Shown here piece after piece: positions 6,750 to 40,811 of a stretch of 64,000 nucleotides of DNA. The stretch lies in NCBI GenBank assembly GCA_008632985.1, contig QPGO01000005.1, forward strand, positions 889,607-953,606, read 5' to 3'. The notes below the pieces were generated by a model. That model was not told the origin of the DNA. It did no database searches and saw nothing but the letters and a program-made list of their open reading frames with translations. Each line of letters begins with the position of its first letter. Position 1 is the first letter of the stretch. The position numbers were made by a program, and so were the translations under genes. This stretch comes from Psammoneis japonica (taxonomy: Eukaryota).

Positions 6750-7920
6750 CCTGGTTGTTGCTGGCACCCCTGGGACACAATGGAGGCACCCAAGGCTGTT
6801 CAAAGACAACTGGGCACTTGTGCTGTCACACGGCACAGAAAGCTCCCTTGTCTCTGCAAGGTGAGGTGGCTGGGCCAAAGTGAGCCAATCACATCATGTG
6901 CAGAAAGGGGGTGCATTGGCCCAAGACCAGGCTTTGCCTTCCCAGCCATTGTTGTTCTTGCCTCCTCAGGGACCCAATGAAGTCTCTTGTGCCCATCCCA
7001 AGACAACTGAGTGCTCTTGTGCTGTCACACAGATGGCTCCCTTGTCTTTCTTGCAAATTGGTTCTTGGCTGGGCCAAACCCAGTCACGTCAGAGAGACAA
7101 GGTGCTGCACTGACACAAGATGAGGCCTGTGCTTCCCAACCATTGTTGTTGTTGTGTCCTCTGGGATCCAACGGAGTGGCTCAAAGCCATTCCAAGACAA
7201 CTGAACACTTGCACTGTCACACAGATGGTTTTCTTGTCTCTGTGGTGGTGGGGGCGGCTGGGCCAAACCCAGCAGTCATGTCAGAGAGACAAGGTCCTGC
7301 ACTGACACAAGACAAGGCCTTTTCTTCCCAAGCGTTGTTGTTGTTGGCTCCTGACAACCAAGCACTTGTGCTGTTGCACAGATGGTTTTCTTGTCTCTGT
7401 GGGTGGGGGGTGGCTCTGGGCCAAACCCAGTCATGTCAGAGAGACAAAGCATTGACACAAGACAAGGCCTTTGCTTCCCAACCATTGTTGTTGTTGCATC
7501 CTCTGGGACCCAATGGAGTCATCTGACACCATCCCAAGACAACGGAGCACTTGCGCTGTTGCACAGATGGTTTTCTTGTCCTTGCAGGAGGTGGGGTGGC
7601 TGGGCCAAAGAACCCAGTCATGTCAGAGAGACAGGGTTCTGTGTTGACACAAGACAAGGCCTTTGCTTCTCAGCCATTGTTGTCATTGCATGTTCCTCTG
7701 GGACCCAATGGAGTCATCCAATGCCATCCCAAGACACAGAGCACTTGCGCTGTTGCACCAATGTTTCCCTTGTCTCTGCAGGCTGGCTGGCTGGGCCAAA
7801 GCCAGTCATGTCAGAGAGACAAGGTGCCGCATTGACACAAGACATGGCATTTGCTCCCCAACCAAAGTTGTTGGCATGTCCCTGGCAGCCCACTGGAGTC
7901 CTCCAATGCTGCCCCAATGC
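6750..7920. repeat. Diverged tandem repeat, ~6 copies of a ~185 bp unit
   Basis: The anchor GGGCCAAA recurs at ~6872, 7071, 7260, 7418, 7602 and 7793, mostly followed by CAGTCATGTCAGAGAGACAAGG...TGACACAAGACAAGGCC. Confidence 0.9.
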
Positions 7921-8653
7921 ATCTGCGCTCCTCCTTTGTCACATCTGTGGGCCCCATGCTTCTGCACGTTGTGCGCAGCTGGGCATCTTCTTGTTTGTGG
8001 AGGAATCATGCAAGGGGCTGCTGCTGCCCAAGACAAGGCTTGCAGCTTCCCAAATCAAGAGTGCAAAGATGCCACAATTGGGCCAACTCACTCAACAAAT
8101 GCAGACTGAGTGCATTTGGGGTGCGTGTCATGCGGGCAGCAACTCAAACCAATGTGCCTTTGTCATGGTGATGATGATGATCTGGCTTGGCATTTTGCAA
8201 ATGTTTGCTGGGACATGGGGGCACCACCACATGCTCCATTTTAGTGTCTCAAATGACGTTGGCCTGTGCACCAAGCACCATCCACCCGGCAAGCCTGTTG
8301 CTCCAATTGGAGACACCAAGACATGTCATCAAACTCAACACCAGAATGAACCCCTGGGAACTGTGGATGTGAACTCTGGCCATTGTCTTCATTTGCGATG
8401 ATGGCAACAAAATGAAACAATCTTCCCAGTCTCTGTCATCTGGCAGTGGCTTTCCAAGCAGTGGCGCCATTGCTTGCTTCATGAGATGCAAAGACCATGC
8501 CTTGGCAAGTTTAAATCTAGGCTGCTCTTCCTGCTGTTCCCAGTGCTTTTCTTGCTGCAGCACTGGGGGTGTGCTTCCCAAAGTCATCGCAAGGGTTCAG
8601 GCCAAAATGGAGAAAGAAAAACACTGGAGATGTCATTGAAAATGTCTTTGGAG

Positions 8654-8655
<2 letters not shown>

Positions 8656-8685
<30 letters not shown>

Positions 8686-8692
8686 CATTGTT
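8656..8692 (+). repeat. (GTT)n microsatellite
   Basis: Run ttgttgttgttgttgttgttgttgttgtc seen directly. Confidence 0.9.
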
Positions 8693-8867
8693 GCACATCC
8701 AACCAGGACAACAAAGTGGATTGTGACAGGGGCGCACCATTGTTGTTGGTGGATGTTAGATCAGAGGGGATGAGTTGTGCGGTGTCCAGCAGGAAAAAAG
8801 GACAGATGCAGCAGAGACAGAGGAAAGCAAAGGCAGAGAGCTGGCAAAATGGAAGGAAAAGGAAACT

Positions 8868-10385
8868 GATGAAGCTGTTCTTGAGAGGTTTGAAATGAGG
8901 ACAAAATGAGCCACACAGGTGACTAAAACAAAGGCAGAGATCTGACAAATGGAGGGGAAAAATGAAGCTGTTCTTAACAAGAGTTTAAAATGAGGACAAA
9001 ATGAGCCACACAGGTGACTTCACACGATGCTTTTTGGCCACAGCTGCACAGCCATTGCTGTGATTTTTGACAAAAATGCTCACAACCCATGAAGTCAATT
9101 CTTTTTCTTTCCAAAACGCAGACACGCAATGCAACTCAAGTCAACCATGGGATCAGTTGCAGCGGCAGCAATGTTTGACACCAAGTGCAAGAAACATTTG
9201 GAGAGTGTGTTGAAACATCATTGCAATCACAAGGTGTGTGTCCCAAAGAAAGGCATCATCTTCACTCAATTCCTTTTGTCATCGTCTGAACTTTTCACTC
9301 AATTCATTTGTTTCTTCTGCATCGGACAATGCAGCGAATGTTTTGAAGGTCCAAAGTGGAGTGCACCCTGCAGCCACCCATGACTTGGATGTTGCATTCA
9401 AAAAAGATGACAGAGAAAGGCACGCACTCTTTCTTTGGTTTTGTTTTCTGTGTCAAAAACAAAAGCAAGCGTTGGCAAGAATCCTTGCTTGTCATGATCA
9501 TCTGTGACAATCAAATTGACTCAATGTCTGCATCAATTTGTCCATGAGTTTCAATCAATGACTCAAACACCACCCTCCATGACCCACGGAGACTGTCCTG
9601 GGGGCAGCTGTCAGGTGTCAAAAATTTGTGCAAGTTCCTGAGGAGCCACGCCAAGCAGTTGGACATTGGATCCTGTGAGCATGCCAGCTCCAACCAAATC
9701 AATTTGGAGCACAGCTTAAATTGTTCACATTGTCTGCAAAGAGGAATTTTCAAGTGGTCAATGCTTCTAAGATTGGGGCCAAACTGCAGAAAATGCTGCC
9801 AGCAACAATCAAGTGACAACAGCTGACGGGAACCCTTCGTGTCGGACACCCATTTTTGTCATTTTGCATGCACAGAACAATGTGCAGTTTGTCAATGATG
9901 TGGATTGAACACTGCACAATGGTCCAGGAAGCATCTGCTGCATGAAAGGGCATTGAATGTGAGCAACAGCAAGAATCAACAAGCACAGTCAGTGCCATTT
10001 AACCATGAAAGGTGGGTTTGAACCAGGGCTTGGTGAGTGCGCAGGCAGTTCTCTCTGCCGGGCTCCAAGCACTGGAAATCATTGCTGCAATGATGAGAAT
10101 GGCTTTGTCAAAGAGCAATGCCATGAAGTGCTGTGTCTCAAGAGTCTTGTCAACTGACACATCATGTGAAGCTTGCTCGAGTGCCTTTCAGAAACATGTC
10201 GCCAAGCTCACTTCCCTTGGCCACGACAGATTGAACCAGCAAACTGCAGCACACAGAGAAATCACTCATGTGAGCCACACAGGCAACTTGAACAAAGACA
10301 GAGATCTGACAAATGCAAGGAAAAAAAACAAATGAAGCTGTTCTCAACAAGTGCCCACAATGTGGACAGAATGAGCCACACAACA
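8868..10385 (+). repeat. Dispersed ~90-100 bp repeat: two tandem copies at 8868-9019 and related copies at ~10270-10385
   Basis: ATGAAGCTGTTCT...GGACA(A/G)AATGAGCCACACA and CAGAGATCTGACAAATG occur at both locations. Confidence 0.8.
9129..10260 (+). pseudogene. Decayed hAT-superfamily (DUF659-like) transposase remnant
   Basis: Fragments across frames, in the expected order: VCVPKKGIIF, SDNAANV (TDNAAN-like), VKNLCKFLRSH, RVLSTDTSCEACSSAF and HDRL (resembling the hAT C-terminal dimerisation motif R.LS...SS.CER.WS.F...RNRL). Confidence 0.5.
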
Positions 10386-11018
10386 TGTGGCTTGGAATGA
10401 GCAAAACAGACTCATTTGTTTGTGACTTGATGACTGCTGAGAAACAAAAATGACAATTGTGTGTGTTGAAAATCTGTGGATGCAATCAGCGCACATGTGA
10501 AAATTTCAATCATTGACAAGTTGCACTCTTGTCAAGCACAGAAACATGTTGCAGACACTCTGACGACATCTTTTGCTGCTGCTGTGCTTCAGCTGCTGGG
10601 TTCCAACAAAAGTTTGCACACTGCAACAATGGAATTTTGGCTGGCTTGGTCTGCAATGTGTGGTGGTTTGTGCAAATGCATCATCTGCAAAGGGGCAAAG
10701 CAAAGTTTTCATTTGAGCACACGCTTGGCACTCCTGACAACTCTGGCGCCGAAGAACTCCACCCACACACTTTGTTGCACCTGGCTTGCTCACAGCATGT
10801 GGCACACATTTCTCAGAAGTGACTTCTTGTTGCAACAAACAAGAAGAGAGAAGAAGTCAGCTGAGTGACAGCTGCAACAACAGCACTTTGTGCTGTTGGA
10901 CACATGAGACATTTGGGGCAAGGAGCATCTGCGCATTCCTGCCTGCACACAGGAGTCACCCAGGGAAGCAAGAAGGATGAAAGCAAAAGGGGGGAGTGAC
11001 ACATCAACAGCATTTGGC

Positions 11019-11041
11019 GGGGGGGGGGGGGGGGGGGGGGG
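11019..11041 (+). repeat. Poly-G tract (23 nt)
   Basis: Seen directly. Confidence 0.9.
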
Positions 11042-11456
11042 ATTGTGGCGTGATCTTGTGAACTGGCTTGAAGAGCTTTTAGATTTTTGTGCAGCTGATG
11101 AAAGGAAAAAATGTGGGCAACTGTGAGGAGCTCAGATTCCATGCTGAGCATGTTGCTCCAAAGATGGGTCCCTCATGTTCCCAAGCAGACGAGTCACCAC
11201 AATTTGGAGGAAAGTGTGCTGCAGTTTGTTGGAAGCAAGCTTCTCTTTTGACAATTTGATGTGGATGCACTGACAGGATTGTACAGCACTGCGTCGAGAC
11301 GGGAACGATGATGAGCAGCAGCGCCACATCGCCACATCCCCCACATCGCACATTCATTCAAACGGCATTCGACACGATTTGACGATGGACAGACCAAGAC
11401 GGTCGCGACTAAATAAAAGATCTTATTCTCTACGAGTATGGCAAGAAGAGACGGCA

Positions 11457-15117: not shown

Positions 15118-15239
15118 GCTTTTCTGGTGACAAGTAGTAGTTGTACGGTATTGTTGATGATGTGTGGTGTTGATGTATGATGTATTATGCAAGATGCAAG
15201 GGATGCAATGTGGATGCAAAAACATGAGAGGATAAAGAC

Positions 15240-16945
15240 AGACGCATTGACAAACTTCAGGCTGGCCGCCCGGCAGGCAAGCAGACAACAAATGTGAGCT
15301 CAGCGGCCTTTTCTTCGCACAAAAGAGACGAGATGCACTGCCACAAGGAGTCTCGTTGTGTTGCAAGGCCACCAGCAATCGACCCATGCAAGGCACAAGG
15401 CAGTTGGAACTTGTCATCTTTGTCGCTGTCGATTTCTGACAACAAGCAGCTGCCAGAGACCCCAAATGCTCCCGCAGCTGGTGCCCTTCTTTTCCTCCTT
15501 GCCCCACTCCTGTGCAGAAGCTGCGGGGAACAAAGAAAGTGAGTTTGAGTTTGTGCTGTCATCCTTTTCAAGCCAACCGACACAACTGGGCACAACAGGC
15601 AGAGACAACAGTGCACACTCTGCACAAAATTGATGCTCTGCTCTGTGTGCCTCTTTTTCCGTGGTCCATCGCCAGTGCACTCATCACCCCAACAACTTTG
15701 CTGCAGAGCTTGTGCTCAGAATTGCGTGGGCACCACATCACATGGCATCCAGCAGGAGTTTGAGCTTCAGCTGCACTGCTCCTTTTCTGCTGGCTTGTCC
15801 GACCTCCACAATGCTGTTGTGTGGAGAGCATCTTCCTTTCTGGCTGGTGCGTGTGTTGCTGCTGCAGCTTGGCACTCATTGATGGCACTGGGGGGAGCAA
15901 AAATGCACTGAGCACATGGAAAGTCAACTGGGATGTTGTCCTGTCTCTGCAACAAGCAGTTTGATGCATGGCCAGCTGTCTTTCAGCTTGGGGCAACTGA
16001 CAGCACACATGGCCACTCAAACTTGACAAAGAGGGAGAAGGAAAAAGAGAAACTTGCACATTTTGCTCAAGAAATGAGCAACACAATGCAGCAGAACAGG
16101 CAAGGTGTTCAGACATGGAAACACAGCTGCAGCACCTGGTCATGTGAAAATGTTGACTCATCACAATGAGTCTGCTGGGCCCGCTGCAATCCAGCCAGTT
16201 TCTTCCTGTCCCAACAAGAAGAGCATGGCACCAAGGGGCACAGGCACATTTGCAAATGCTGCCCCAAAGTGACAGTGGATGGCATGTGCAGGTCATGTGC
16301 CCAGAGGAACACAACAAACACGCGTCACACAACAAAAAGACTGTGTGTGCCATGCATGCTGCAGCACACCTCAAACATGCTCCTTCAAGTTCTGCTCCTG
16401 CATTGCCAACAAATTGGAGAAGCTCATTCCTCTTTTGGTCAAAAAGTTCAACAGCCTTTGAGAGCTGCTGCTTCCTGAGCCATTTTAGAGAGACAGTCAT
16501 GGCCAAGACCAACAGACCCATCACGCCAATTGTGCTTTCCCAGTTTTGTTCAATTTCAAATTTGATGGGGTTTTGTTGTTTGACTCACAGGTTTGTTGGG
16601 GCCTGCACACCAGCTGAGTGTGTTGGGTGCACTCATTGAAGAATCAACAGCTGGCAAAGTTCGTGAAGTGGAGAGATGTTTTCTGCTTGCTTCTTTCAGG
16701 GAAGGATGGGAGTGAGGGTTTGGGCTTGAGTTTTGTGACATGTGTTCTCTTTCTAGAGATTCTGTGGACAAGTCCCTGGAAAACAGGTGATTGCTCGTGC
16801 ATGTCACATTGGGGTGAGGGCAACACAGAAGTGGAAACACCTGCGGCACTTCAAAACACAGAGCAGAACAAAGCATGCTGGAAACGGAAGAGCTTCAGGG
16901 CGGCATCAGTGAAAAGGCCGACAATGTGGATGGTGTTGAATCGCT
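15240..16945. mobile_element. Degenerate repeat domain 2 (CpG- and TpA-depleted), element type not identified
   Basis: The only TpA seen inside are TTAG (~16486) and CTAG (~16754). No recognisable intact ORF. Confidence 0.6.
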
Positions 16946-17332
16946 GATATCTCTTGCTGGTGCTGCAAAGGATTGCCATCGAGCAAAACTGCACTTTCAT
17001 CAGAAGAAACTGAAAAAATTGAAATCAAAGAAGGGTGGCAACTTCCGGGTGCGGCAGACGTTGAGCGGAAACGAAAAGTCGACACTCGGAACGGCGAACG
17101 ATCATTCGAGCAATCGCAAAACGAAGGTACGCTTTGCAACCGGATGAAGAAAAAGCGCGGAAAGTTATCGTTAGGATTGGCGTAGTATAGATTTGTGGTT
17201 CAGGATTATCTTGTCTAGAGAAGTTACATTTTGCCACTAACTTTTATCTTTTGCAGTCCCTGTCATCCAAACTTAACTTACTAAAATGAACGTACAGCTG
17301 AAAAGAGCCATTGCGGATGCATTATTTCCCTG

Positions 17333-19830: not shown

Positions 19831-21199
19831 AGGGAATTTTGCCGTGAGTTTCTTTGCACTCGTTCACACACACCGTATTAATGTTACTTTCTCTCTGAAA
19901 GATACAATACGCTTGTGACAAGCTAACTCACCATGTTTATCGACATCGTGTAGAAGTACAATCCTCCCCTTCGATCTTGGATTGTGAGTGTTGTCGTGGG
20001 CGTGAAAGCAGCCGAATTATATGGAGTTGAGACGCCGTGTCGCATCGTTTCACAGAAACTCACCGAGAAACTTCCTAAGATCTTCCTGTCGTATCAATGC
20101 GCCAGATGCGGTCGAGTCAAGCACGGAAAGATGTCGTGTAGCAGTTATCGCGATGGTCTACCCCATTTTCGGAAACACGTGCCGAAATAATGCAGGGCGT
20201 TCAATCCATCAATCCCGATACCAGATCTCTTGCCCGATTTCAGGATTTCCCTGTGTACCCGTTTGGTGCCTCTACGGATGTCCCATATGAATTGGTCGTC
20301 GCCTTTACCGATGATCCTGCGATCATGTCTTCTGCCATATGTATCAGAATTGGAAGCGACCGGTGGAGAAGACACACGGGAAAGTCAGCCGGAGACAATT
20401 TGGCAGCCTCTCAAAGGACCTAACAAGGTTTCTTTCGGTATACTCCTAGAAGCTACATCTTGTTGTATGTGGACGGACTCTCCGTTTAATCCTCCCGAAG
20501 ACGAATTGTCCTATCCAACGTTTGCACATACGACCGAGGAACTCTTGGTGGCACTAACTGAATTGAAGGGCACCAGTGACTGGCCATTGTTATTCTTTGT
20601 TTTTTCGAAGAATAGAGCATGTTCTCGGGGACTTGTCGAGAACTTTCTCTTCCTGTCGGCACTGTCGGGCAGTTCAAATGTAGGGCTGACTATGACGCTT
20701 CTCATAGCGAAGGTGTTGCGTGCCCCTTGGCTACAAAGGGTGCCGTCAATGTTGGTGAAACAACTACGGACACTCTTTTAATGACTCTTTAGCCAATATT
20801 GCCACTAAGATTGTTCCTGGTCAGGGTGTCTCTCAGAGCATTGCAGAATCGATTCAAGAAGTCGACAATCTCAAGGAAGATGTGGGTTGCTAGTAGGTGC
20901 ATCGGGGGCGTCCGTTTGTATCTGCCACAACATGTTTCATTTTTTTATTAGCCATCACATGTGTGACCTACATTGCTTACAATAGAGATATTTGGAGGTA
21001 GGCGTCCTCACTTTGAGCGGGAGTAGCACAAGACAAAAGACCCGACCTGCACTGTTCAAAATGGTGTGGCAGCTGCGGCTGTTACCTGTTGTTCCATGAT
21101 CCAGCAACTGCTGGCAATGGTTGGGCAAGAGTGTGACAACGCAGAAGATTGCTTTATCCCCCCCCCCCCCCTGCAAATCTCCAAAGTCTTCTGCTGGTG

Positions 21200-21920
21200 T
21201 CTTGTGGCAATTGGCAACCCATCATCCATGGCGTGACCTCATGGGTGCCACACTCACATCCATTTGGAGGCCAATTCAGGGCCCAGCCCTGCCCAGCCCC
21301 ACCACTGCATGTCTTGTGAGTTTCTGATGAAAGACAGTGCCCTCTGCAAAATGTTGTCAACAAAAAGTTTTGCAGGATGTGCTGAAGTGCAGTGACAAAC
21401 TGGACAACATGCCTCCCCTCCAAGATCTCCTCTTGTCTTCTCTCCAGGCTTGGTTCTTCCAAAGTCAGATTGCACATTTGAAAAGGTGGATTGCCACTTG
21501 CAGACACTTTTCGACACTTGGAATGAAGCTGGGTGGCACCAGGTGCTTGACAGCTGACTCTCCTGCTTGTAAAACACAACTCAGCTGGATCATTTGCACA
21601 CAGACTTGGGCTTTCTCTTGGGTGGCCCCAGTCAGAGAACAAAATGCCCCCTGGCCAGTTGGCACAAGTTGGGTCTTTCACGTGGTCACAATGTGGATGC
21701 CAGAGAGTTGGCTCAATGCTGTCTCTTGCAGAGGCAGAGCTGACAGCTGTCTGAAACAAATGGCAAGAAGAAAGCATCATCCAGCCAAAGTTTGTGTGGG
21801 GCTGCTGGAGTTGGTTGAAGAACATTGGATGCATGGACTCTCAAGAACAACAAAGATGCAAAGAGTTGGATTGCAGTGGCTCAACCAACACTGGAGAACA
21901 GCCTCAACAAAGAAGGAAAG
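21200..21920 (+). pseudogene. 3' fragment of a non-LTR (LINE-like) retrotransposon ORF2
   Basis: Fragments LLSSLQAWF, WNEAGWHQVLDS*L (Q..IGW..L.GR-like), WIICTQTWAFSW and terminal WTLKNNKDAKSWIAVAQP resemble LINE C-terminal regions as recalled. No RT core is present. Confidence 0.4.
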
Positions 21921-22049
21921 TTTTTCAGGGTTTTGCTGCTCCTCCCCCATGCCATTGGTGCTGCTGACCATTTTTGTTGGGCACCATCTCTGGGTGGCAG
22001 CCCTCCCAGCCAATCATTTTCCCTTCTGCCATGCTGGATGGTGCAACAG

Positions 22050-23450
22050 AAGTGTGGGTTGGCACAGCATCAGAGAAGCTCTGGCCATTGCCTGCCATGA
22101 TCCAGCAACCATCAATGACATGGAATTGGCATGACAGCACCCAAGCAAAGCAAGATGACTCATCTTGCCCCTCTGCAAATCTCTAAAGTCTCATGGAAAT
22201 TTGCAAGCCATCCTCCAATGTGTGGCACATCATTGGCAAGCTGTGTTCATGTCTGTTTGGAAGCCAACTCAGATGCATTGTTCCTGGGCTCTGCTGTCTC
22301 ACTGGTTGCCCAAGTTTTTGGGTTGACAACAACATGTTTTTTCTTTCTGCTGGCTGGCTCTCATGTGCAGAAGAGAGCTGTCAAGCACATCATCTGCTGT
22401 TTGAGGCCACAGCTCTGGTGCCAGCCTTGCATGCCCACAAAAGCAGCAAACAGACAATGGGATGGAACAACAAGGAGCAGCCAGGAGGGGGGGAAAGCAG
22501 GTGTTTTTGGTGAACATCAAAAACCTGTGTGTCAAATCTCTCAGATCTTGTTTTGCAAGATCCAGTGCTTGTCTTGCCCACAATGAGGTGTCCCCACAAC
22601 CCACAGAACAACCCTTGTGCTCTCTCAAGGAGGTTGCAAAGAATGCAAATTCTTTGATTGTCAAGCACAACTTGTTGTGGACAATTTGCAAGAAACAGCC
22701 CATTTCTCAGATTGTTTGCTTTTTCAGGTCTGAGTCCAAACTTTTGCAGGAGCCCACACCCTTTTTGTTTTGCCCCACCAAATCTTTTGGGTCACAATGA
22801 TGCCTTCTCACGGCTCTCACAGTCTTCTGCCTCGTTTGTGAAGATGTGCTTGTTGTGCAAGATCTGGCACTTGGCCTTTTCTTTCCTGGCCAGCTCTTGT
22901 CCCTTTGCAGTGCTTGACTGCCTTGTTTGTGCTGGTTCTCTCTCCTCTGCAGCAGCTCATCAGCAGACTCTTGCACAGCAGCCACACCTCTCAAAACAGA
23001 TCAGAGGTGATGCAGTTGTCAGCGGAGGCAGTTGCCAGTGGAAGCAGTTGCCAGCAGAAACAGTTGCCTGGCATCTGGCGCCAGTCTCTGCTGCTTGTGT
23101 CTGACCAATTTGACAAAACCTGCAACATTTGCTCTCCTCCAAAGCTTCTGCTTTCTGCCTGTGGTGTGCCAACAGAGACAATGCACACAGCCAGGGGACA
23201 GTGCACATTGATTTGAGGGGCTCAATGCTGCAACGCTCATCACATTGGAGCATGGTCCACCCTTTGTCAACCACAGCACAGCTGACCTTGATTGAGCTCT
23301 TTGCATTTTTCCCAGCTGAGCAGTGCAGACCTCTGTGCTGCTCCATTTTACCCCGTGCGACGACCCCTTTGCAAAATTGTTTTTGCTGCTCTTCACTTGC
23401 AATTGGCTGCCCATCATTTTGGCTGCAGACTCCAGTTTTTACAGTGCACA
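22050..23450 (-). pseudogene. Possible decayed MULE/MuDR transposase 5' part
   Basis: ASEEQQKQFCK...IKVSCAVVDKGWTMLQ (MuDR-like DNA-binding pattern) followed by VIDGCWIM (first-Asp-like motif). Heavily degraded. Confidence 0.25.
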
Positions 23451-23993
23451 CCATGAAATTTCTGTGACAATTTGGATTCAACACAGGCACCCATGGGAAA
23501 AGTGAAGAACAGTGCATGCTCCGACAGAGTTTTGCCAAACGGAGAGCTCCTCTGGCTGCTGTGTGTCACAGCCCTTCATGTTGCTGTCACCAGGCAATGG
23601 GTGACAGACAGCATTGTTCTTTTTCAAACTTTGACCAAACATTTGCAGATGAGTGTGAACTGCCAATGGCAAGCATCAGGAGCTGCACTTTGCCTGGATC
23701 TTCATGATCCGCAGCAAATGGCATTGGCCTGGAACTCATGATGGCGTGCTTCGACGGAATCTTGCCGATCGGCGATCGGAGTTCTTTGCACGGTCGGATT
23801 CTGGATCTTTTCACTTTGCACTGTGTGGTTCAGTGTTCAGTGCTCAGTAGTGCGAACCCTCTCGTCGTGTCATGATGTTTTGTTGAGACAGTGACAGTTC
23901 CTCTTCTTGTTCGCTTGTTAGCACAAGAAAAGACTGTATCATGTTACATTGACATGCCGCATTTGCCTCAATCCTGAAGTTCTGACACTTTCT

Positions 23994-27287: not shown

Positions 27288-27487
27288 CGCAAGCGAAATT
27301 GGGGGCACGATTCTCAAACCAACGCATTTGGGACGAATCGTCGGACTCTTTGTGCAGGATTATGATAAGGAACTTTACTATCCTGTTAGCTAGCTACAGA
27401 CCACTTTCATGCGAAAAACGGCTCACGGTAGTTCTTCAGCCACAATGAGCAGCTATGTCAAACACGCAAACCGTTACTGCGAATAAA

Positions 27488-32395: not shown

Positions 32396-33036
32396 TAGGG
32401 GCGTCGTAGTCGGGGGGCAGATTGTGCAGACGACGAGGAGACAAGACATGTGCGAGTACGGGGGGTCAATCCAATGATTTCTATTTTTCTTTTTGTGGCG
32501 CTTCTTGTGTGGGAAAAGGCGGCACTGGTAGATGAAAACGCTGTAGCCTAGTGTTGTAATTTGTAGAGGCCTCTCTATCATGACAAGGTGGAGCAATGAT
32601 ATATCGAACCTTAAAGGCAGCGTCAATCGCGGAATGGTCTTGGAACTCTTGCGACGGTGTAGTTTCTCTTGTTCTCTGGCGTCCAAGTCGGTGAATACAA
32701 TCCGTAAGCTTCCTGTATGTCGGATGCGAGTAGCCGGTCTCGCTTGCGATTGCAAGGTGCTGCCCAGTCAGAATACCCTAACCCTTTCCACATTTTACAA
32801 CATGCTTTGCTCCATTGCCAGACCGGTGTGGCTTCTTGATCATCCCAATCCTTGTATTCATGTCACTGTCTTCTTCTTTGTCCTTCTTTGTCTTCTTTGT
32901 TGTTGTCCTGTGTTGTTCTTTTTCCGTTTTCTCTTCCTCATTGTCCTTGTCATTGCCAGAAAGCTCTGTTGTTGCTTGTGTTCTCATCTCTGATTCTGCC
33001 GGTTTTTTCTTCATTTTTGCTCCCTTGCCCTTTTAA

Positions 33037-34570
33037 TCACTCACCTGTTTCTTGCCTTTGCTGCACGCTGCACCATGTGTCAAACTGCACACCCTGCTCA
33101 CTTGCCCTGTCTTCCTTCACCTCCACAAGCATGATGTTGAGTTGCTTTGCTCCTTCATTCTTCCAAGAGTTGCGCTGTTGTGCTGTTGGTGGGTCTGTGC
33201 ACAAGGGCGCCAGTGTCATTTCCTTCTCCTCTTCTTTTCTCTCTTCATTTCCCTCTTGAATGTTCTTTTCCTTCATGGTCTTGTGCTCCCAAATCTTCCA
33301 GCAGTTTTCCAATTTCAACATCAGCCCCAGAGCCTCATCACTTGCCGCAGTCAGCTCTGCAGCCTTGGCAATTCCAGACTCCACCATCTTTCTCCAAACC
33401 GCAGTGCTCTTTGTGAATTTTAGAACATTGTCATAGAGCCATGTGCATGCGTCCTTGTTTGTCTGCTTTGCACTCACAATGGTCTCCACCATCTCTTTCT
33501 CCCAAGTTGCCAGGAACTGTTCTTCAATGGCCACAGCTGCCTTCTCATTTTTTGTTTTATTTTTGCTTTTTCTTGTGGCTTTCTGTTGTTGCTCATGGAC
33601 CCCTTGGCTTTGTCTTTTGTCAACATGACTGCAGTGAATGAGCACTGTGTTGGCCGCACCACAATCAACACCTTCTTGTCAATGCTTCCCGTGGCACTTG
33701 CCTCTCAATGCATTCTTCCATGTTGTCTGGGTGACGGCATTCCTCTTCACATTGATTGCATTGAGGATGCACTTTTTTGCCCAGTTTCCCACAATCCTGC
33801 CCAGTCTTGCTTGTTGAACCTGCCACTGGCTGTGTTTTCCACATCAGCCATGACACCTTGCCACCACTTGCCAGGTCTGTCTTGCCAAGGAATTTCACTT
33901 TTGGGAACAGCATTTTTCAGGCCATCTTTTTGACCTCTCTCCTCAAAGATTGGTGATCTCCAGCAGCTCCTGCTTGCAACAACATCACCACCAACCTTGT
34001 GCTGTTTGGTGGGTCGGACTCCAGTGCAGCCAGCAGGAAAACAACCAAACCTGGGTTGCACATGTTTCTCAATGAATCCACTGCTGTTGATGTTGTTTGT
34101 TTGTTTCTTTCCTTTGTGATCAACGTTCATTTCAAACAAAGCTCATGACTGTGCTTCCATCTTTTTAAGTTGCAAATTGCTTGTCAATGAGTGCATTTAA
34201 AATCAACCAAAGTGCACACACAAACATTCACACCTGTGAAAGTTTTAGATTTTGGAATGAACCACTTGGCAACCATCCTCCTGCCATTCTCCTTCCATGC
34301 CATTTTCTCCATGGGTTGCCCCAACTTGTCTCCAATCCAATTCTTCCAGATCTTCCATGGCATCTTCTCCAAATGAACCAGGACAAAATGTTTGCACCGC
34401 TCATTGTGAGAACAATCTGTCATGTGATCAAATGCATTTGTCACCTCATGAACACAACGCACAAATCTCTCCAAGTGTTTGTGACACAGTTGCTCTTTCT
34501 TCTGCATGCACTCATTTCTGCAATGGCATCTCTCCTTCTTGTCTTCACAGGTCATGCTTGCAATCATGAC
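33037..34570 (-). pseudogene. Decayed transposon-associated accessory ORF
   Basis: LFPKVKFL, INVKRNAV, ASDEALGLMLKLENCW, PLCT, SWKNEGAKQLN...VKEDR. These match my recollection of a repeated protist TE-associated family (SDEAF.LL.LENYW...YT...W..EG..RFN...V..DR). Confidence 0.45.
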
Positions 34571-36299
34571 TTGGGCTCTCTTTCTTGATCAACTCCAGCA
34601 CCCAACTGTTGACCATCCTCAGGGTCAACTCACAGACACCATTTTGTCACACATTCAACCAAATGCCTGATGGGGTGTCACAAACAGCCAGCTTCCTGGC
34701 ATTGAACATGGTGCCCTTTTTGTCCATGACAAACATGCACACACCTGCTGACTTGGAATTCAAGCATGGTGGTCCACACGCTCTGTTCCTGTCCATTCCA
34801 CAGGCAGGCAAGCCAATGTTTGGCATCCTTTTTGACTCATGAACGTCTCTCTCGCCCAAAGTAAATCACATGTTGTCCCCCCCTTGATCTGGCACAGCAC
34901 TCATCTCTCATCTCCACATCTTCAATGGGGTGGTTGAAACAATTGGCACAATGTTGCTGCTCTCTCTGCCTGTCCTCCTGGGCAGGTTGCAATGCACTCC
35001 CAATGCTGCCTGCATTTGTGTGCCTCCCTCCCCTGTTCAACAATCTCATCCACCCAGCAAATTGTGCCAGCATTGGAGAACATGGGTTGCACCCCTCCCA
35101 CGCTTTGCTCATCAACCAACATTTGTCCATCCACCAATCCTTCCATGTTCCATGCACTTTTGTTTTCACATCACCAGGTGCCACTTTGATCATGGCCAAT
35201 GCACAAAACAGGTTGAGGCAGCCTTGGCACAGGCAAGGGACATCTGTTTGTTCCCTGCTTCCACTGCGCAACCAGCGGCGCACCTTGTCTCTGCTGAATG
35301 ATGATCCACTTCCATGATTTCTTCTCTTCTTTGTCTCTTGTGCCAGTTGGCTCTGCAAATCTCTCCCCAGTGGTCATTAGCCAGCATGCAATTGACATGT
35401 CATTCTGGACACAACTGACTTGTGGCTGATGTTGGGGTTGCTTGTTGCTCAGTTTTCCCATGCCATGTGTTGTTGATGGGTTTGTTGAACACATCTCTGG
35501 GGATGGCAATGGATTTCTGTGTGTGGCATCACTGTGTTCCATGCAATGGAATTCACAGTGAGTGATGACCAGAGTGCTTGCAAACAACCATTGGAACTTT
35601 CTTTCTCCTTTCTGCAGACAACCCCAACTTTGTAATCTGGCATTTGTCTCAAATGCATCATTCCTTCAAATGACTGCATTTCATTGGCACCTGCAAAAGC
35701 ATTCATTCATTCAAAGAAAACAATGCACTGTGTTTTTGCACCAACTCTGTGTCTTGCATCCCAAGTTTCCCACCACAATTCACCCACTTTGCTTGACCAA
35801 ACCAAACTGGGCTGTGATTGTGCATCTGCGTCGTGCATGGCACAACTTGCTCTGGTTGCAAGGATGAATCACTGATGAGCATGGTGACCAAGGGACAATT
35901 GCCTGCCCATGCTGCAAACAATCCTTCACGTGCATGCTCAGCCACTTCAACCACAATCCACATTGCCTTTTTGTTGCTTGCAAACGGCCAAGTTTTTTGC
36001 CGAGATCCAGTTGTCCCATCCTTTTAACCCCCCAAAGGTGTGAAACAGGGAGCCTTGACAATGTGACGAGAGAGATGTCAGAAGAAACATTGGTCTCACA
36101 CAGAAAATTAACACTGGGAATCTTGCGCAGAAATGCCAATCCACACAGCAAATGGATGGTCATAAAGTGATGCAGATGGTTCACCCAAATGAACACTGGC
36201 AAGGGACAGAACTTTCACCACATCAGGTGAAGATTTGAGCAGCCGGCAGGAGAAAAAGAAATTGTTGTGGGCAGATGGGCATGATGGAAAGATGATTGC

Positions 36300-37200
36300 A
36301 TCAAAAATGTGTGATTGTTGGTGAGCATTTCTGAAGTGCATGGAATTTGCACTGGATCCTGCACAGAAAATGCGCCAAATCTGCAAAAAAATGCCAAGCA
36401 AGACAACAACATGAAAACCATGAGGCATCAATGCCAGTCATTTTCCACTGAAAATTGTTGCACATTGTGCTGGATTGAGGGTGAGCCAGTGACAGAAGTG
36501 GCCAAAAGGGTGTCGGGGCCCCAGCAAAATGACGTCTGAAAAGGGCGACATCAGAGCAGCACAGCAGAAACACATGTTAAAGAGAGCCGTGGGCTGCACC
36601 AGGTGTGGCCTGTGATTTGGGGTCACACCGATGGTTGTGCCAAACATTGTTGATGTGCTTTGGTGCTGCACTTTCTTTTGGTGTTTGCCACAAATGAAAC
36701 ATTGTCTTTGACCATGCCATTGGAGCACCTGGACATGGCAAGGAGAGGCAGATGGAGCCAGAGCCTGCATTGAATCACTCGTGCATCAAAAAATGCAGTC
36801 CACAGCTCTTGCAGGAGCCAATGATGAGAATGGGAAAATCAGAGCTGATGCTTTGGTTGTGGATGACAATGAGTTTGACCCTCTCATGACTGTTGAGGCC
36901 AGTGGGTGGGTCAGCAAGGGAGTGCATCTAAACCATGTTCTTCCAAGGGCTAGAGGTTGGCAAACCCAGCAATGCTGAGGAATGCCAGACAAAAGAGTGT
37001 TGCTCAAGCAAGTTGCAGTTGCAAACATTGAGCTCAATGAACCATTGGCCTTCTGCACTGCCAAGAATGCACAACAGGAGTGAGGCTTTTCACTTCTTGG
37101 CCCACTTCATTTGAGTGAGGATGAGCACAAAGCCATCCTTGATGCAATTCACAAGCATGGGTTGATGGACTGTTTTGAGGAATGCAAGGAGGGAGGAGGA
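36300..37200 (+). pseudogene. Decayed DDE transposase, Sola2-like
   Basis: AKQDNNMKT, IWGHTDGCAKHC*CA (36615-36659; DGC..QY[RK]-type motif), then DHAIGAPGHGK (to 36742) followed by ADG, i.e. the DGC...HGK...DG signature. Confidence 0.65.
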
Positions 37201-37469
37201 GGAGGGACAACCACAACAGCAAAACTGGTGAGTTTGAGGAAAAGAGAATGATGATGAGGAGGAAGAGGACAGCACAGAAGTGGGCTGTGAGGAGGATGAG
37301 AAGAGCATGGGGGGGACAGTGAATGTGATGAGTCTGACAAACAAAATGGTGTCACTTTGCATCATGCAGCCAAATGAACCATCTCACACAAGAGCTTTCC
37401 TTTTGCCATTTGCCTGCTGCCACACTGTGCTTGGTTCCGCACCTTTTTTGCCACATGTTTCACCTCATG

Positions 37470-38100
37470 CTCCTCATTTCCAAGACACCAATTCAAGCAC
37501 TTGATGTCCTTTGCTGGCAATGCAAAATGGTGATCGGAGTCAAAGATCCAACCATGGCACAAGGCACACAGTGGTTGTTTGCCAGATGGCACAAAGTCAT
37601 GCAGCCATCATTGCAGGCCATCACATCAAATTCACCACCCACTTCCAAGGAAATGGTTTGATGCAAACTTCCCCAAAACTTTGATTTTGAGTTTGTTGGT
37701 GGGAACTTTCCCTTCAAACAATTGCTCAGCATGTGCTTTGCAAACAACACATGCATTTGTTGTCAGTGTCAGCTCAGCTGGCAGATCTTTTGATGTGAGA
37801 TGCAATGCAGCCTCTCATTTCCAGGTTGCCAGCACAATGAAGAACGCTGATCAGGGATGAAAACATGCAAGTGTCACTGTGCTCTTCTTGTGAGAACATC
37901 ACAGGCAGGCTGCTTGTTGGCAAGTTGGCATCCAATGGCATCAAAACATTTCCTTCTGACAAGATTTAAAACCCTCCTCAGGCTTCCAGTCTTTAAAATC
38001 TTTCCAAACATCTGGAAACTGCATCTTGAAATTGCACTCAGCCCAATCCAGGGTCACATGCATTGGACAGTTGCCCTGCAGGATGCAGCCAACAAAATTG
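37470..38100 (-). pseudogene. Decayed papain-fold (C39-like) peptidase ORF
   Basis: LDWAECNF, FSQEEHSDTCMFSSLISVLH (Q..C), NHCV, GWIFDSDHHFAL and LNWCLG give an ordered Cys/His/Asp triad pattern across frameshifts. Confidence 0.45.
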
Positions 38101-40811
38101 GCACCCCGTTGTGAGATGTGGAAGTTTTTGCATCTCCTCCTGACTCAATCTCTTGAGTCTTCCAACCTGTGGTGTGTTGCAAATCACATCCACCTTGTGC
38201 TTGATCTCATTGATGCATCTTTGATTTAATTTTAGCATGTTCAATGAGGCCTGCACACATTTCCATGGGATGGCCATTCAATGCATTGGCCCTTTGGTCA
38301 AACCATTCTTCACACAGCATGACGCCCTTGTTCTCCTCAGCAAAGCAACCAAACAAGAAGTCAGCAACAGCTCCTGTGGAATTGCCAGGCTGTGGAAGCT
38401 TCACTCCAAACAATTTTTTTAATCTGCAACATGGCTTGAGCATCATTGCGCACTTGCTTGGTCACCTCCCTTTCTTTTTGGTGGCACTTGCTGTCTTTGC
38501 TCAAACCAACAAAATGCAGGTGTTCTTGGTTTTGGCTTTGAAAGCCAGTGAGATCACACATTGTTTTCCACTCCAGTTGTGGCTTTCATGAGCTCCATCT
38601 GGCACCTGCGATGCATGTCTCCTGCCCTCTCCTTCTTCTCTGCCTTTGTGTCTCTGACTGAGAAGTCTTCTGCATTCTTCATGCCCCCCCCCCCCTGCTC
38701 CTGCTCCTGCTCTTCCTCCTCTTCCTCAGTTGATTCATCCATGCCTCACCCTTGATCCTCCTCCACTTTGTTGTCATCTTAGAGTTGCAACCTTTTTGTT
38801 CCCTTGTCCCTTGTCTGCTTGTCTGCCTCTTTCATTTTGTTCCTTTTTGTTCCCTCATTTGCCTCTTGCTTTTCATCCTCCTCTGTCTCAAGCATTTCCT
38901 CCACCATCTTGGCATGAGTCAAGCAATTATGGAGTTGCATTCTTCTGCAAAACAAGCACCATTGCAGATGGGGAGCCACCTTGCACCAATCAGCAAGGCA
39001 AGTCAGTGGCTCCTTGAAACAGTCCTTCTTTCTTGGGCACTTGGGGAAGTGAACTTGCAACATGTGTTTGTCATTGGTGGCAGCCTCCGCCAACTTTGAG
39101 CAATGATGCAGCAAAAAAGACCTGCACAGCTGATCTGGGGGGCAGCAACAGTTGGAGAAAATCTGTCAGCTGCAGAAACCCACAACACATTGTTGCACCA
39201 TCAACCCACAATGACATCAAACAATGCCTCCGATGGTGTTGTCTCTTTGGGGTTGTGTGGACCAAACGGGAAAATCTTCTGGCAACCATGACAGCCACTG
39301 CAACATGTGAGCACTTTATGGAGATTGTCTGTTTGTTCATGATCCTCCCTTTTGCAATGCACATGATGAAAAACACAGTCCCTGTTGTTGTCCACATTGG
39401 CCTTCTTCAACTTTTTACATTGGACAGGTGGTGTGCGATGCTTCTTTTTGTCCACATGTTTTTTCTCAGCAATTTCTGATTTAACAGACCAACAGTTGTG
39501 TGTTTCACACCAGCTCCATTTTGCAGATAAAATGGGGTGAGTTGTTTCTTGACGAAACTTGACATGCACTCCCTTCACTGCCAATGTTTCAAATTCGTTC
39601 TTCTCTCGCCCCAACCTGGACTTAATTTTCCACCATCTGCAATGCCCGATTTTGCCAAAAAAAGACCACACAGGTCTTCTTTAGATCTTTGGTCAACATT
39701 TCAGGGTTGTGCCTTTCCAGGTCATCAATGTTGACCACACTGTCATTGCAAATTTGGTGCTTGGCAAGGCTAAAATGTGGCTTCAGCAAGTGGCTCCTCC
39801 CAATGTTTTTCATCTTTGCACATCTCGCTGGCAAGGTTGACATGCTCTGGGCTGGAATGAGGCAATGCCAAAACAGTTGCAGAGCTCATTGGAGCAACCT
39901 CACAATCTCCTTTGCATGCAGAGCAGTGGCATTGCCTCTGTCGTTTTTCACAAGCTTGCCCCACTCCCTGTGCTTGTGGACCTCCACCAAGTCTGAACAT
40001 TCAGACATGTCATCCGTGATGTCCTTGAAACCCATCATGACCAAGAATTCACACAAGTTGGGCAAAGGAGCTGCACCTGTTGAAAATGCAGAGTGGCCAA
40101 CACAGCAAAGCAGCAAACTGGCGCATTCATCAACAATCTGTGCAAACAATGCATTGCACAATTCATGCCAAGCATGAGCATCAATGGAAAATGTTGTGAT
40201 GCAAATGCTCTTGACTTTCAGGTTCTGCAGGAATGAAGGCAGGCACACTCATGGGGGAAAATGGCGGCTGTTTCATGGAGAATGGTGTGCTCCTCCTCCT
40301 GCGACAAGGATCGGATGCCACAACAATGAAGTGTGTCATCTGCCACAGACAGTTGACATCTCATTGCCATGTGCACAAAATTGCTGTGAGAAAGGAGGCA
40401 AGAACCCAGACTTGCTCCACAGCATCTCTGGCACAACAGGTTGGCTCGAACCAACAACTTCATGACTTCATGTGCCAATCTGTCTTTTCAGTTTGTTGTT
40501 TGGTTGGTTGGCATGTCTCACACCCAACATGTCTTCACCATGAGCGAAAACAATGAAGCAAGGCAGCGCAGGCCAGCCAGCCAGGATGTGCATGAACACA
40601 AAAGCGCAGTTGCCCAAAATCGAAACTGCAACGCGAATGAAGAATCCAATCTCAAATCGCGATCGAACATCAGACGTCGTGCGCGTGTTCGTGTTCGTTT
40701 CATTCCGTTGCCTCCAGTTGCTTCAGCCCTTAGTCCGTTATTATATATTCTTTGCTGACTGCTACATCTTTGCCACTCTATCCACTGGGCGTAAAGCTAA
40801 GAAAAAGCACC

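What the first reader, a model, noticed from the sequence alone, without database searches (positions are those of the whole stretch)
32860..40730. Surviving TpA sites are mostly YTAR, implying a TAY (= RTA) target motif
Seen: about 20 of ~22 residual TA in domain 1 are TTAA/TTAG/CTAA/CTAG, and both survivors in domain 2 are YTAR. In this domain YTAR again dominates (TTAA ~33033, 34166, 37967; CTAG ~36950; TTAG ~38779), with a minority of one-sided sites (TTAT, TTAC, GTAA, ATAA). I saw no RTAY (GTAC, ATAT, GTAT, ATAC) in the domain interiors. Inference: the A of 5'-TAY-3' is hit independently on each strand. RTAY is a double target and disappears, RTAR and YTAY are single targets and are rare, and YTAR is least affected. 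Such tetranucleotide specificity suggests an enzyme rather than compositional drift.
Basis: partly seen in the sequence, partly recalled or inferred. Interest (0 to 1): 0.85.

Follow-up and report, generated by a model that had tools for sequence, protein, structure and literature searches.

The report
Diatom DNA domains purged of TA/CG
In a diatom genome, long non-coding stretches between genes have had almost every TA and CG step turned into TG or CA by a mutation process that depends on the neighbouring base, which points to an undescribed DNA-mutating activity acting on silent DNA.

Summary
The window is diatom nuclear DNA. Four intergenic domains (about 1400-11000, 15400-16950, 21030-23700, 32860-40730; 21.6 kb) keep 59 TA and 182 CG, against 1549 and 2346 in 40 kb outside. 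CA and TG rise to rho 1.8 and G+C is unchanged.

- **Surviving TA:** 41 of 59 are YTAR and 1 is RTAY; outside it is 240 and 480 of 1549 (Fisher p 2e-19).
- **Fit:** a model in which each strand is hit independently fits the ten NTAN classes. Loss rates by the base 3' of the A are T 2.7, C 2.8, G 1.3, A 0.1.
- **CG:** it shows a weaker version of the same pattern, with GCG protected.
- **Product asymmetry:** RCAR and YTGY exceed RTGR and YCAY, as the same rule predicts.

The domains are non-coding. Contigs from a public run show the same sequence, and D4 is multi-copy. Tandem copies resolved the same ancestral CG differently.

TA loss and CG loss have different borders, so two activities are likely. 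One is probably decay of methylated CpG. The other is an unknown TpA-directed A-to-G activity. My literature searches found no description of this.

The parts
32860..40730 (.). Domain D4 (the flagged one): TA-free zone. Its CG-poor part runs from about 32750 to 40545.
   Evidence: 30 TA and 61 CG in 7.7 kb. Change points: TA 32860 and 40730, CG 32750 and 40545. No Pfam family in six frames. No LTR or TIR. Summed contig depth 77-964 against about 56 in unique DNA, so it is multi-copy.
1350..11410 (.). Domain D1: TA-free and CG-poor intergenic block between a mitochondrial-carrier gene (-) and a GT22 gene (+).
   Evidence: 20 TA in 9.6 kb, 17 of them YTAR. Change points. No Pfam family in six frames.
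6805..7917 (+). Six tandem units of about 190 bp inside D1. Different units resolved the same ancestral CG in different ways.
   Evidence: Of 18 YR steps kept in all six units, 5 mix CA, TG and CG. One column reads GCGC in 2 units, GTGC in 3 and GCAC in 1.
15235..17125 (.). Domain D2: TA-free block upstream of the cyclophilin gene (-).
   Evidence: 3 TA in 1.55 kb. Change points: TA 15235 and 17125, CG 15435 and 16795. Not scanned against Pfam.
21160..23845 (.). Domain D3: TA-free block upstream of RtcB, at single-copy depth.
   Evidence: 6 TA in 2.7 kb. X1 contigs cover 21183-22732 with 7 differences and 22706-29276 with 23 differences, at depth 56-58; the second crosses the right border. No Pfam family.
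40545..40730 (.). Border zone with normal or high CG but no TA, next to the 5' end of the following gene. It is one of five such zones; the others are 11290-11410, 15235-15435, 16795-17125 and 23710-23845.
   Evidence: The five zones total 970 bp, with 70 CG and 2 TA where 37.5 TA are expected (Poisson p 4e-14).

Best explanation
The domains are ordinary non-coding diatom DNA, at least partly repeated, that fills four long intergenic spaces. This DNA has been driven almost to completion through transitions at the two self-complementary pyrimidine-purine steps: CG to TG or CA, and TA to TG or CA.

Shown:
- The purine/pyrimidine skeleton is unchanged.
- The changes are strand-symmetric and evenly spread.
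- Each strand behaves as an independent target whose rate depends on the base just outside the step.

Inferred: two separately targeted activities act on silent DNA.
1. Deamination of methylated CpG. It is fastest at TCG and slowest at GCG, and it stops short of neighbouring promoters.
2. A TpA-directed A-to-G change (T-to-C on the other strand). It is fastest when the A is followed by T or C, half as fast before G, and almost absent before A. It reaches 120-330 bp further towards gene starts.

I think the second activity is most likely enzymatic deamination of adenine in DNA at TpA. Together the two would work like fungal repeat-induced point mutation (RIP): permanent mutational inactivation of inserted or repeated DNA.
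For: Depletion and products:
- TA rho is 0.04 and CG 0.15 inside, against 0.59 and 0.99 outside. CA and TG are 1.8 against 1.16. G+C is 47.9% against 48.6%.
- YR steps per kb in the four R/Y flank classes are the same inside and outside: 56.0/56.7, 59.7/63.4, 67.0/66.4, 53.7/56.2.

Simulation:
- Applying four context rates to the outside sequence reproduces the domains' k-mer spectrum. For k=4, r is 0.973, against 0.687 for unmodified outside sequence and 0.946 for context-free rates.
- It also reproduces all 16 class counts.

Flank rules:
- Independent-strand fits: TA deviance 10.3 on 6 df, CG 5.3 on 6 df.
- The product asymmetry agrees (Fisher p 3e-6 and 1e-8).

Uniformity:
- TG and CA are about equal in 28 bins of up to 800 bp (largest |z| 2.5).
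- Survivors are Poisson-spread, dispersion 0.90-1.15.

Non-coding nature:
- No Pfam family in 18 frame translations of D1, D3 and D4. Outside, 18 of 32 ORFs have one.
- R/Y three-base periodicity has a median of 0.44 inside and 2.77 outside.

Direction of change: tandem units carry GCGC, GTGC and GCAC at one column.

Reality and copy number: public-run contigs agree with D3 and cross its border. D4 has excess depth. Differences between laid contigs and the window are 391 transitions against 157 transversions.

Two of the 13 differences listed in D3 form adjacent TG/CA double changes, and three more are CA/TA, TA/CA and CA/CG.

Separate borders are shown.
Against: - No ancestral or unmutated copy was recovered, so the direction at TA sites is inferred from composition alone. 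The tandem-repeat evidence is direct only for CG.
- Recalled, and not covered by my searches: I know of no natural enzyme that deaminates adenine in DNA at TpA.
- D3 is at single-copy depth and the four domains share no similarity. Dependence on repeats, the hallmark of RIP, is therefore not shown.
- D3's six TA do not follow the YTAR rule.
- The tandem units differ at 55 columns with transversions against 51 with transitions only. The DNA is old, and a slow steady state cannot be excluded. A steady-state model fits CG as well (deviance 5.5) and TA only somewhat worse (18.7 on 6 df, p 0.005).
- Methylation, chromatin state and the genome's enzyme repertoire could not be examined, because no genome is held.
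- The baseline is mostly coding DNA.
Confidence: 0.5

Rival explanations
1. Secondary, repair-driven mutagenesis. T:G mismatches from deamination of methylated CpG recruit excision and error-prone resynthesis of a few hundred bases, and the polymerase puts G opposite T at TpA. This would resemble phase II of antibody somatic hypermutation or non-canonical mismatch repair (both recalled).
For: - TA loss occurs only together with CG-poor domains.
- The TA-free zone overshoots the CG-poor zone by 120-330 bp at 5 of 8 borders, as repair patches would.
- All four domains end at similar residual levels: TA 1.9-3.9 per kb and CG 6.0-13.5 per kb.
- A finite-exposure model fits TA better than a steady state: deviance 10.3 against 18.7. 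A self-limiting process would give this.
Against: - Pol eta's WA motif (recalled) predicts loss of AA as well. AA/TT is instead higher in the domains than in the simulation or outside: 86.4, 81.9 and 74.8 per 1000.
- TA is lost faster per site than CG: rates about 2.7 against 1.0-1.4.
- At two borders the CG-poor zone runs 80-110 bp past TA sites that survive in sensitive contexts (ATAC, GTAT, TTAC).
Confidence: 0.2
2. Chemistry on 5-methylpyrimidines. A TET/JBP-type dioxygenase oxidises thymine at TpA, and 5-methylcytosine at CpG, in these domains. The oxidised bases (formyluracil, formylcytosine) then mispair and give T-to-C and C-to-T changes.
For: - All changes can be written as pyrimidine transitions at a 5-methylpyrimidine followed by its complementary purine.
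- Single substitutions switch human TET2 from 5-methylcytosine to thymine. This produces hmU and fU in the genome and raises mutation frequency (PMC11804724, passages read).
- Oxidation of the thymine methyl group to hmU, foU and caU is established (PMC9423628, passages read).
Against: - Written this way the flank preferences of the two targets disagree: T is worst 5' of a target T and best 5' of a target C.
- TET products of 5mC are normally repaired back to C (recalled), which would protect CG rather than destroy it.
- One search found no report of thymine hypermodification in diatoms.
- That formyluracil gives T-to-C changes is recalled, not read.
Confidence: 0.08
3. No dedicated process. 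This would be a slow steady state of context-biased spontaneous mutation in old, methylated, unconstrained DNA.
For: - A steady-state model fits the CG classes (deviance 5.5 on 6 df). Its loss-to-creation ratios of 6-25 per strand are within what methylated CpG shows in vertebrates (recalled).
- The tandem repeats are old.
- Residual levels are similar in all four domains.
Against: - For TA the same model needs loss 150-160 times faster per strand than ordinary C-to-T change at CpA, and it fits worse (deviance 18.7, p 0.005). I recall no spontaneous process with that bias.
- Other non-ORF DNA in the window keeps 54.6 TA per kb.
- Borders are sharp, within tens of bases.
Confidence: 0.1
4. Selection, or a foreign origin. 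Either TA- and CG-containing words are avoided in these domains for a function, or the DNA came from a donor with this composition.
For: Avoidance of short words is known in phages; earlier notes of this scan describe CA/TG avoidance there. D4 is a repeat family.
Against: - Avoidance does not predict which product replaces a lost TA or CG. Yet the RCAR/YTGY excess follows the same flank rule as the survivors.
- The R/Y skeleton equals that of host DNA.
- The domains carry no coding signal and none of the families searched for.
- Tandem units show CG being resolved in place.
Confidence: 0.05
5. Sequencing or assembly artefact caused by modified bases.
For: Modified bases are known to cause transition-like base-calling errors on some platforms (recalled). 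The supporting run comes from the same sample.
Against: - Contigs built from a public run at about 56-fold word depth reproduce D3 with 7 differences in 1550 bp and cross its border into normal DNA.
- A per-strand misreading would give reads that are all TG or all CA. Instead TG and CA are interleaved finely and in a context-dependent way.
- The rest of the window is normal.
Confidence: 0.03

Closest known systems
Repeat-induced point mutation (RIP) of fungi, including the TCG-directed form in Microbotryum (PMC5381629 and PMC3318451, seen only in search listings)
   Same: Near-saturating, transition-only, strand-symmetric mutation of silent, at least partly repeated DNA with sharp borders. It destroys any coding capacity. 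The TCG preference of the CG component matches the basidiomycete pattern.
   Different: - RIP makes only C-to-T changes and usually raises TpA. Here TpA is removed even more completely than CpG, which needs A-to-G changes.
- The organism is a diatom.
- One domain is single-copy.
- G+C does not fall.
Decay of methylated CpG (vertebrate-type CpG depletion)
   Same: CG rho of 0.15 with a matching TG and CA excess. The depletion is confined to domains and spares CG-rich zones next to gene starts.
   Different: It does not touch TA. Methylation was not measured here.
Antibody somatic hypermutation: AID at WRC plus Pol eta at WA (recalled)
   Same: It is the only natural system I can name that combines C-to-T and A-to-G mutation in a targeted domain of a few kilobases.
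   Different: The contexts differ: CG instead of WRC, and TA but not AA. There is no strand bias. The changes are in the germline and near complete.
TadA/ADAT tRNA adenosine deaminases and the base editors derived from them (recalled)
   Same: The target A is preceded by T/U and followed by C. The deaminase fold can act on both A and C.
   Different: Natural members act on tRNA. Here T is as good as C at +1 and G is tolerated. No such gene could be looked for.
CTAG depletion in E. coli through very-short-patch repair (recalled)
   Same: It is a precedent for a repair system for deaminated 5-methylcytosine removing a TA-containing word by T-to-C change.
   Different: It is genome-wide, mild and limited to one tetranucleotide. 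CTAG is among the better survivors here.

Membership tests
Fungal RIP | Only C:G to T:A transitions | tested here: not met
   TA falls from rho 0.59 to 0.04 while CA and TG rise. Loss of TA to TG or CA needs A:T to G:C changes. G+C is unchanged.
Fungal RIP | Target dinucleotide bias that leaves an excess of TpA (CpA preference) | tested here: not met
   CA rho is 1.82 and TA rho 0.04, the opposite of the RIP index.
Fungal RIP | Acts on duplicated sequence | tested here: inconclusive
   D4 has depth 77-964 against about 56, with 735 contig pieces laid on the 20-kb stretch at 85% likeness or more. D3 is at depth 56-80. D1-D4 share no similarity apart from repeats within D1.
Fungal RIP | Depends on a RID/DNMT4-type methyltransferase; premeiotic timing | not testable with these tools
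   No genome is held. Diatom DNMT4 is related to RID and its function is unknown (PMC9998398, passages read).
Methylated-CpG decay | CG replaced by TG and CA in the affected DNA | tested here: met
   CG is 8.4 per kb against 58.6 per kb. Tandem units show GCGC, GTGC and GCAC at one site.
Methylated-CpG decay | The DNA carries 5-methylcytosine | not testable with these tools
   No methylation data. It is inferred only from CG-rich zones spared next to gene 5' ends.
AID/APOBEC editing | TC or WRC context regardless of the next base; strand-coordinated clusters | tested here: not met
   Changes in TC and CC are accounted for by flow from CG alone. TG and CA are about equal in all 28 bins. The family's motifs are recalled.
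ADAR hyper-editing fixed through retrocopies | A-to-G at many A's, with 3' G favoured and strand-specific runs | tested here: not met
   Only A after T is affected. G at +1 is half as good as C or T. There is no strand bias. ADAR's preferences are recalled.
Pol eta WA mutagenesis | AA as well as TA is mutated | tested here: not met
   AA/TT is 86.4 per 1000 in the domains, 81.9 in the simulation and 74.8 outside. The WA motif is recalled.
TadA/ADAT-like adenine deaminase | Target A in a U/T-A-C context | tested here: inconclusive
   5' T is required and +1 C is favoured (rate 2.76), but +1 T is equal (2.69) and G is tolerated (1.32). Whether such a gene is present is not testable. The family's context is recalled.

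The most novel reading that the evidence does not exclude
Diatoms possess a mutational genome defence of a new kind. Its core would be a natural DNA adenine-deaminating activity specific for TpA, working beside CpG deamination. It would be targeted to inserted or silent DNA regardless of copy number, and it would erase both self-complementary YR steps while leaving G+C unchanged.
Probability: 0.3. Interest if true: 0.92.

Novelty: new variant of a known kind. Interest (0 to 1): 0.8.

Why it matters
- **A possible new mutational activity.** If the TA component is enzymatic, it would be the first natural activity I know of that converts A to G in DNA with a defined short context. That bears on mutational biology and on the search for natural base-editing enzymes.
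- **A defence outside fungi.** It would also be a RIP-like defence in a major group of marine primary producers. It would offer a testable role for diatom DNMT4 and deaminase-type genes whose function is unknown.
- **Practical use.** A third of this window is such DNA, so the signature is an easy marker for silent or inserted DNA in diatom assemblies: TA below 5 per kb, CG below 15 per kb, and CA and TG doubled. It also warns against reading the many stop-poor frames in these domains as genes.

Tried and rejected
- **Own genome:** not held, so there was no genome-wide scan and no search for enzyme genes.
- **Pfam, six frames with stops read as X:** the first attempt failed on leftover TAA and TAG codons. 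It was repeated with all three stops as X. There were 0 families in 18 frame translations of D4, D1 and D3. D2 was not scanned.
- **Homologue search:** the longest open frame in the high-copy part of D4 (33040-33678, minus strand) gave 110 candidates and none with E of 0.001 or better.
- **Open frames:** a 338-codon open frame in D2 and a 348-codon one in D1 are about what chance gives once TAA and TAG are gone. This is my estimate, not a formal test.
- **Related diatom DNA from metagenomes:** 8 loci totalling about 26 kb showed no TA- or CG-free stretch. That is too little DNA to say anything about other diatoms.
- **Expression:** no RNA holder was listed. Run X2, whose contigs skip an intron, shows no cover over most of D3 and D4.
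- **Rfam:** no family at gathering score.
- **Terminal repeats:** no LTR or TIR in D4. No similarity between the domains.
- **Clustering and strand bias:** survivors are not clustered and there is no strand bias.
- **Survivors as new products:** I considered that YTAR might arise by double deamination of YCGR (TCGA to TTAA). It is not needed, because a model without it gives 37 YTAR against 41 observed, and TTAG/CTAA is predicted from TTAA and CTAG. It is not excluded.
- **Earlier notes of this scan:** nothing on this genome. Word searches returned only the opposite pattern in phages.
- **Literature:** seven searches ran. The five aimed at this question found no report of joint CG and TA loss in diatoms or of A-to-G genome defence. 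Subscription journals and supplements were not covered.

Full report
**What the window is.** ORFs outside the flagged regions encode ordinary eukaryotic proteins: an Alg9-type glycosyltransferase, cyclophilin, RtcB, DUF4336, MutS domains, an ALKBH8-like oxygenase-methyltransferase, MlaE, a mitochondrial carrier, an RRM protein, TauE, RNA polymerase I A49, an AMP-binding enzyme and an ABC transporter. Of 32 ORFs scanned, 18 have a Pfam family. The DUF4336 protein finds diatom proteins as its best relatives, at up to 75% identity. The window is therefore nuclear DNA of a diatom with 48% G+C. No whole genome is held for it.

**The domains.** A count per kilobase shows four blocks in which both TA and CG almost vanish. 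I set them at about 1400-11000 (D1), 15400-16950 (D2), 21030-23700 (D3) and 32860-40600/40730 (D4, the flagged one).
- In 21,564 bp inside there are 59 TA (rho 0.04) and 182 CG (rho 0.15).
- In 40,040 bp outside there are 1549 TA (rho 0.59) and 2346 CG (rho 0.99).
- CA and TG rise from rho 1.16 and 1.17 to 1.82 and 1.80.
- The rho units gained by CA and TG (1.29) nearly equal those lost by CG and TA (1.39). G+C stays at 47.9% against 48.6%.

Each domain fills a whole space between two genes.

It holds. Of the 59 TA inside, 41 are YTAR, 10 YTAY, 7 RTAR and 1 RTAY. Of the 1549 outside, the counts are 240, 424, 405 and 480. Scaled for length, survival is 0.32, 0.044, 0.032 and 0.004. The tests give chi-square 118 (p 2e-25) and Fisher p 2e-19 for YTAR. 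The domains are non-coding and the baseline is mostly coding, so I repeated the test against the 5.2 kb outside that no long open frame covers. There YTAR is 58 of 284, and the difference stays (p 5e-13). Three details differ:
- D1 has 17 YTAR of 20 TA.
- D2 holds one RTAY (ATAT at 16948).
- D3 departs from the rule, with 1 YTAR of 6.

**Is each strand hit independently?** I fitted the ten strand-symmetric NTAN classes with survival exp(-(rate on top strand + rate on bottom strand)). Each rate depends only on the base 3' of the A on that strand, and the outside counts served as the starting composition.
- The rates are A 0.12, G 1.32, C 2.76 and T 2.69.
- The model fits (residual deviance 10.3 on 6 df, p 0.11).
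- It beats a flank-free model by a likelihood ratio of 128.6 (p 1e-27).
- The mixed class TTAG/CTAA is predicted at 14.4 against 15 observed.

The rule is therefore "TA followed by anything but A", with G intermediate.

**CG follows a parallel rule.** Survival is 0.22 for RCGY, 0.14 for the one-sided classes and 0.086 for YCGR. Rates by the base 5' of the C are G 0.50, C 0.97, A 1.06 and T 1.43 (likelihood ratio 43.5, p 2e-9; deviance 5.3 on 6 df). In both cases the base just outside the step, on the strand of the amino base (C or A), matters. T is best or near best, and one purine protects. Against the small non-coding baseline the CG context effect is only borderline (p 0.047).

**A second, independent observable.** If conversion runs through the strand that reads YCG or TAY, then R_YR_R sites should end mostly as CA and Y_YR_Y sites mostly as TG.
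- In R_YR_R, CA is 0.594 and TG 0.364 (outside 0.320 and 0.282).
- In Y_YR_Y, TG is 0.595 and CA 0.366 (Fisher p 3e-6 and 1e-8).
- Rates taken from the survivors alone predict gains of about +0.25 for CA and +0.11 for TG in the R_YR_R class. The observed gains are +0.27 and +0.08 (my arithmetic).

Avoidance or selection against TA and CG would not predict which product replaces them. This is my main reason for reading the pattern as mutation.

**Ordinary sequence plus transitions.** The number of YR steps per kb in each R/Y flank class is the same inside and outside, so the purine/pyrimidine skeleton is untouched. Applying four rates (YCG 1.2, RCG 0.7, TAY 2.5, TAR 0.55) to the outside sequence in a script reproduces all 16 class counts, for example YTAR 37 against 41. 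It also raises the correlation with the domains' tetramer spectrum from 0.687 to 0.973, where context-free rates reach 0.946. The shifts in other dinucleotides (TC down, TT up, GC up, AT down) go in the direction these flows predict, but GC, AT, GA/TC and AA/TT shift further than the simulation gives.

**Nature of the DNA.**
- Six-frame translations of D1, D3 and D4, with stops read as X, match no Pfam family (0 of 18 frames).
- The three-base periodicity of the R/Y skeleton, which transitions cannot erase, has a median of 0.44 in 72 windows inside against 2.77 in 140 outside. It exceeds 4 in 3% of windows inside and 38% outside.
- No Rfam family, no LTR or TIR in D4 and no similarity between domains were found.
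- The domains are therefore non-coding. The many open frames are a side effect of losing TAA and TAG.
- Survivors are spread as a Poisson process (dispersion 0.90-1.15).
- TG and CA are about equal in all 28 bins. Both strands are hit equally and evenly.

**Independent sequence data.** One study holds the stretch.
- *Cover of D3:* contigs of run X1, at about 56-fold word depth, cover D3 with 7 differences in 1550 bp. One contig runs from 22706 to 29276 across the right border into normal DNA.
- *Cover of D4:* summed depth over D4 is 77-964, so D4 belongs to a repeat family.
- *All 735 laid contig pieces:* 391 places differ from the window by a transition and 157 by a transversion.
- *Differences listed in D3:* of the 13, two pairs are adjacent TG/CA double changes, and three are CA/TA, TA/CA and CA/CG. 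Copies or alleles still interconvert through the unstable CG or TA state.
- *Letters beyond the aligned parts of D4-like contigs:* these 269 letters, counted by eye, hold 3 CG and 1 TA, where about 16 and 10 would be normal. This is a weak hint that other copies lie in similar DNA.

The run is from the same sample as the best holder, so it is not fully independent. It does argue against an artefact, and so does the fine interleaving of TG and CA.

**Direction of change.** Six tandem units in D1 (6805-7917) keep 18 YR steps in all units, and 5 of these mix CA, TG and CG. One column reads GCGC in two units, GTGC in three and GCAC in one. Another reads ACGT, ATGT and ACAT. CG was therefore converted in place after the units arose. 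The units also differ at 55 columns with transversions, so the DNA is old.

**Burst or steady state?** A steady-state model (creation from CA and TG by ordinary transitions, balanced by context-dependent loss) fits CG as well as the finite-exposure model (deviance 5.5). Its loss-to-creation ratios are 6-25 per strand. For TA it fits worse (18.7 on 6 df, p 0.005) and needs ratios of about 150-160 for TAY, 32 for TAG and 7 for TAA. Either way TA before a pyrimidine is lost two orders of magnitude faster than ordinary transitions occur. The four domains end at similar residual levels (TA 1.9-3.9 per kb, CG 6.0-13.5 per kb).

**Two processes.** Change points for TA and CG differ.
- At the five borders I list next to gene 5' ends, 970 bp in total keep 70 CG but only 2 TA, where 37.5 are expected (p 4e-14).
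- At the sixth 5'-end border (D1 left) the two change points differ by only 30 bp.
- At the two borders next to gene 3' ends, 190 bp hold 2 CG while 6 TA survive, some in sensitive contexts.

I infer that CG loss follows cytosine methylation, which stops before promoters, and that TA loss has its own, slightly wider reach.

**Mechanism.** What is shown is a transition-only, strand-symmetric, per-strand-independent, flank-dependent removal of CG and TA from silent non-coding DNA. What is inferred is the chemistry.
- For CG, deamination of 5-methylcytosine is the obvious reading.
- For TA, I consider direct deamination of adenine at TpA the most likely cause. I know of no natural precedent for this.
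- Error-prone repair patches triggered by T:G mismatches are the main rival. They would explain the overshoot at borders and a self-limiting end point, but AA is untouched.
- Oxidation of thymine by a TET/JBP-type enzyme is a third option (passages read in PMC11804724 and PMC9423628).

Diatom DNMT4 enzymes are related to the fungal RIP enzyme RID and have no known function (PMC9998398, passages read). They are candidates for the CG part.

**Comparison and novelty.** The closest known system is fungal RIP. The defining features I could test are not met:
- RIP makes only C-to-T changes.
- RIP raises TpA.
- Repeat dependence is not shown here (D3 is single-copy).

I therefore do not file this as RIP, although it probably works like it. 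Five literature searches found no report of joint CG and TA loss or of A-to-G genome defence in diatoms. Subscription journals and supplements were not covered.

**Verdict.** The phenomenon is real and unusual. Its enzyme basis remains open.

Noticed in passing
window 29485-32477 (+): A MutS-type gene (domains III and V) is read as three ORFs: 29485-30861, 30882-31844 and 31866-32477. The last two are in the same frame and separated by a stop. Public-run contigs skip 29929-30040 and 30407-30451 or carry other letters there. Short introns, allelic indels or a pseudogene could explain this; I did not resolve it.
   Followed up: no
window 27746-27820 (-): A contig of run X2 skips 75 bases with CT..AC ends (GT..AG on the minus strand) inside the DUF4336 gene. 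That is an intron, and it shows that X2, listed as 'DNA?', behaves like a cDNA library.
   Followed up: partly
window 29448: This is the only N in the window. Contigs of run X1 end on both sides of it (29276 and 29449), so it may be an assembly join or a masked base.
   Followed up: no
window 48494-49973 (+) and 58542-60687 (+): The RNA polymerase I A49-like factor and an AMP-binding enzyme are each split over two ORFs whose Pfam matches continue one another. This probably reflects introns.
   Followed up: no
window 50386-53051; tandem repeat 51077-51267: A local G+C rise to 55-58% coincides with a 791-aa ORF on the minus strand that has no Pfam family. The ORF holds 3.2 copies of a 60-bp tandem repeat.
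   Followed up: no
window 40545-40812 and the other four 5'-end borders: The TA-free zone runs to within about 80 bp of the next gene's first ATG (40813). The core promoters of these neighbouring genes therefore contain no TA at all, while being CG-rich (72 CG per kb over the five zones).
   Followed up: partly
window 8655-8693, 8824-9019, 10271-10382: D1 also holds a (TTG)13 run and three copies of a 95-100 bp unit at about 80% identity. Two are adjacent and one lies 1.3 kb away. I did not analyse them for CA/TG mixing.
   Followed up: no
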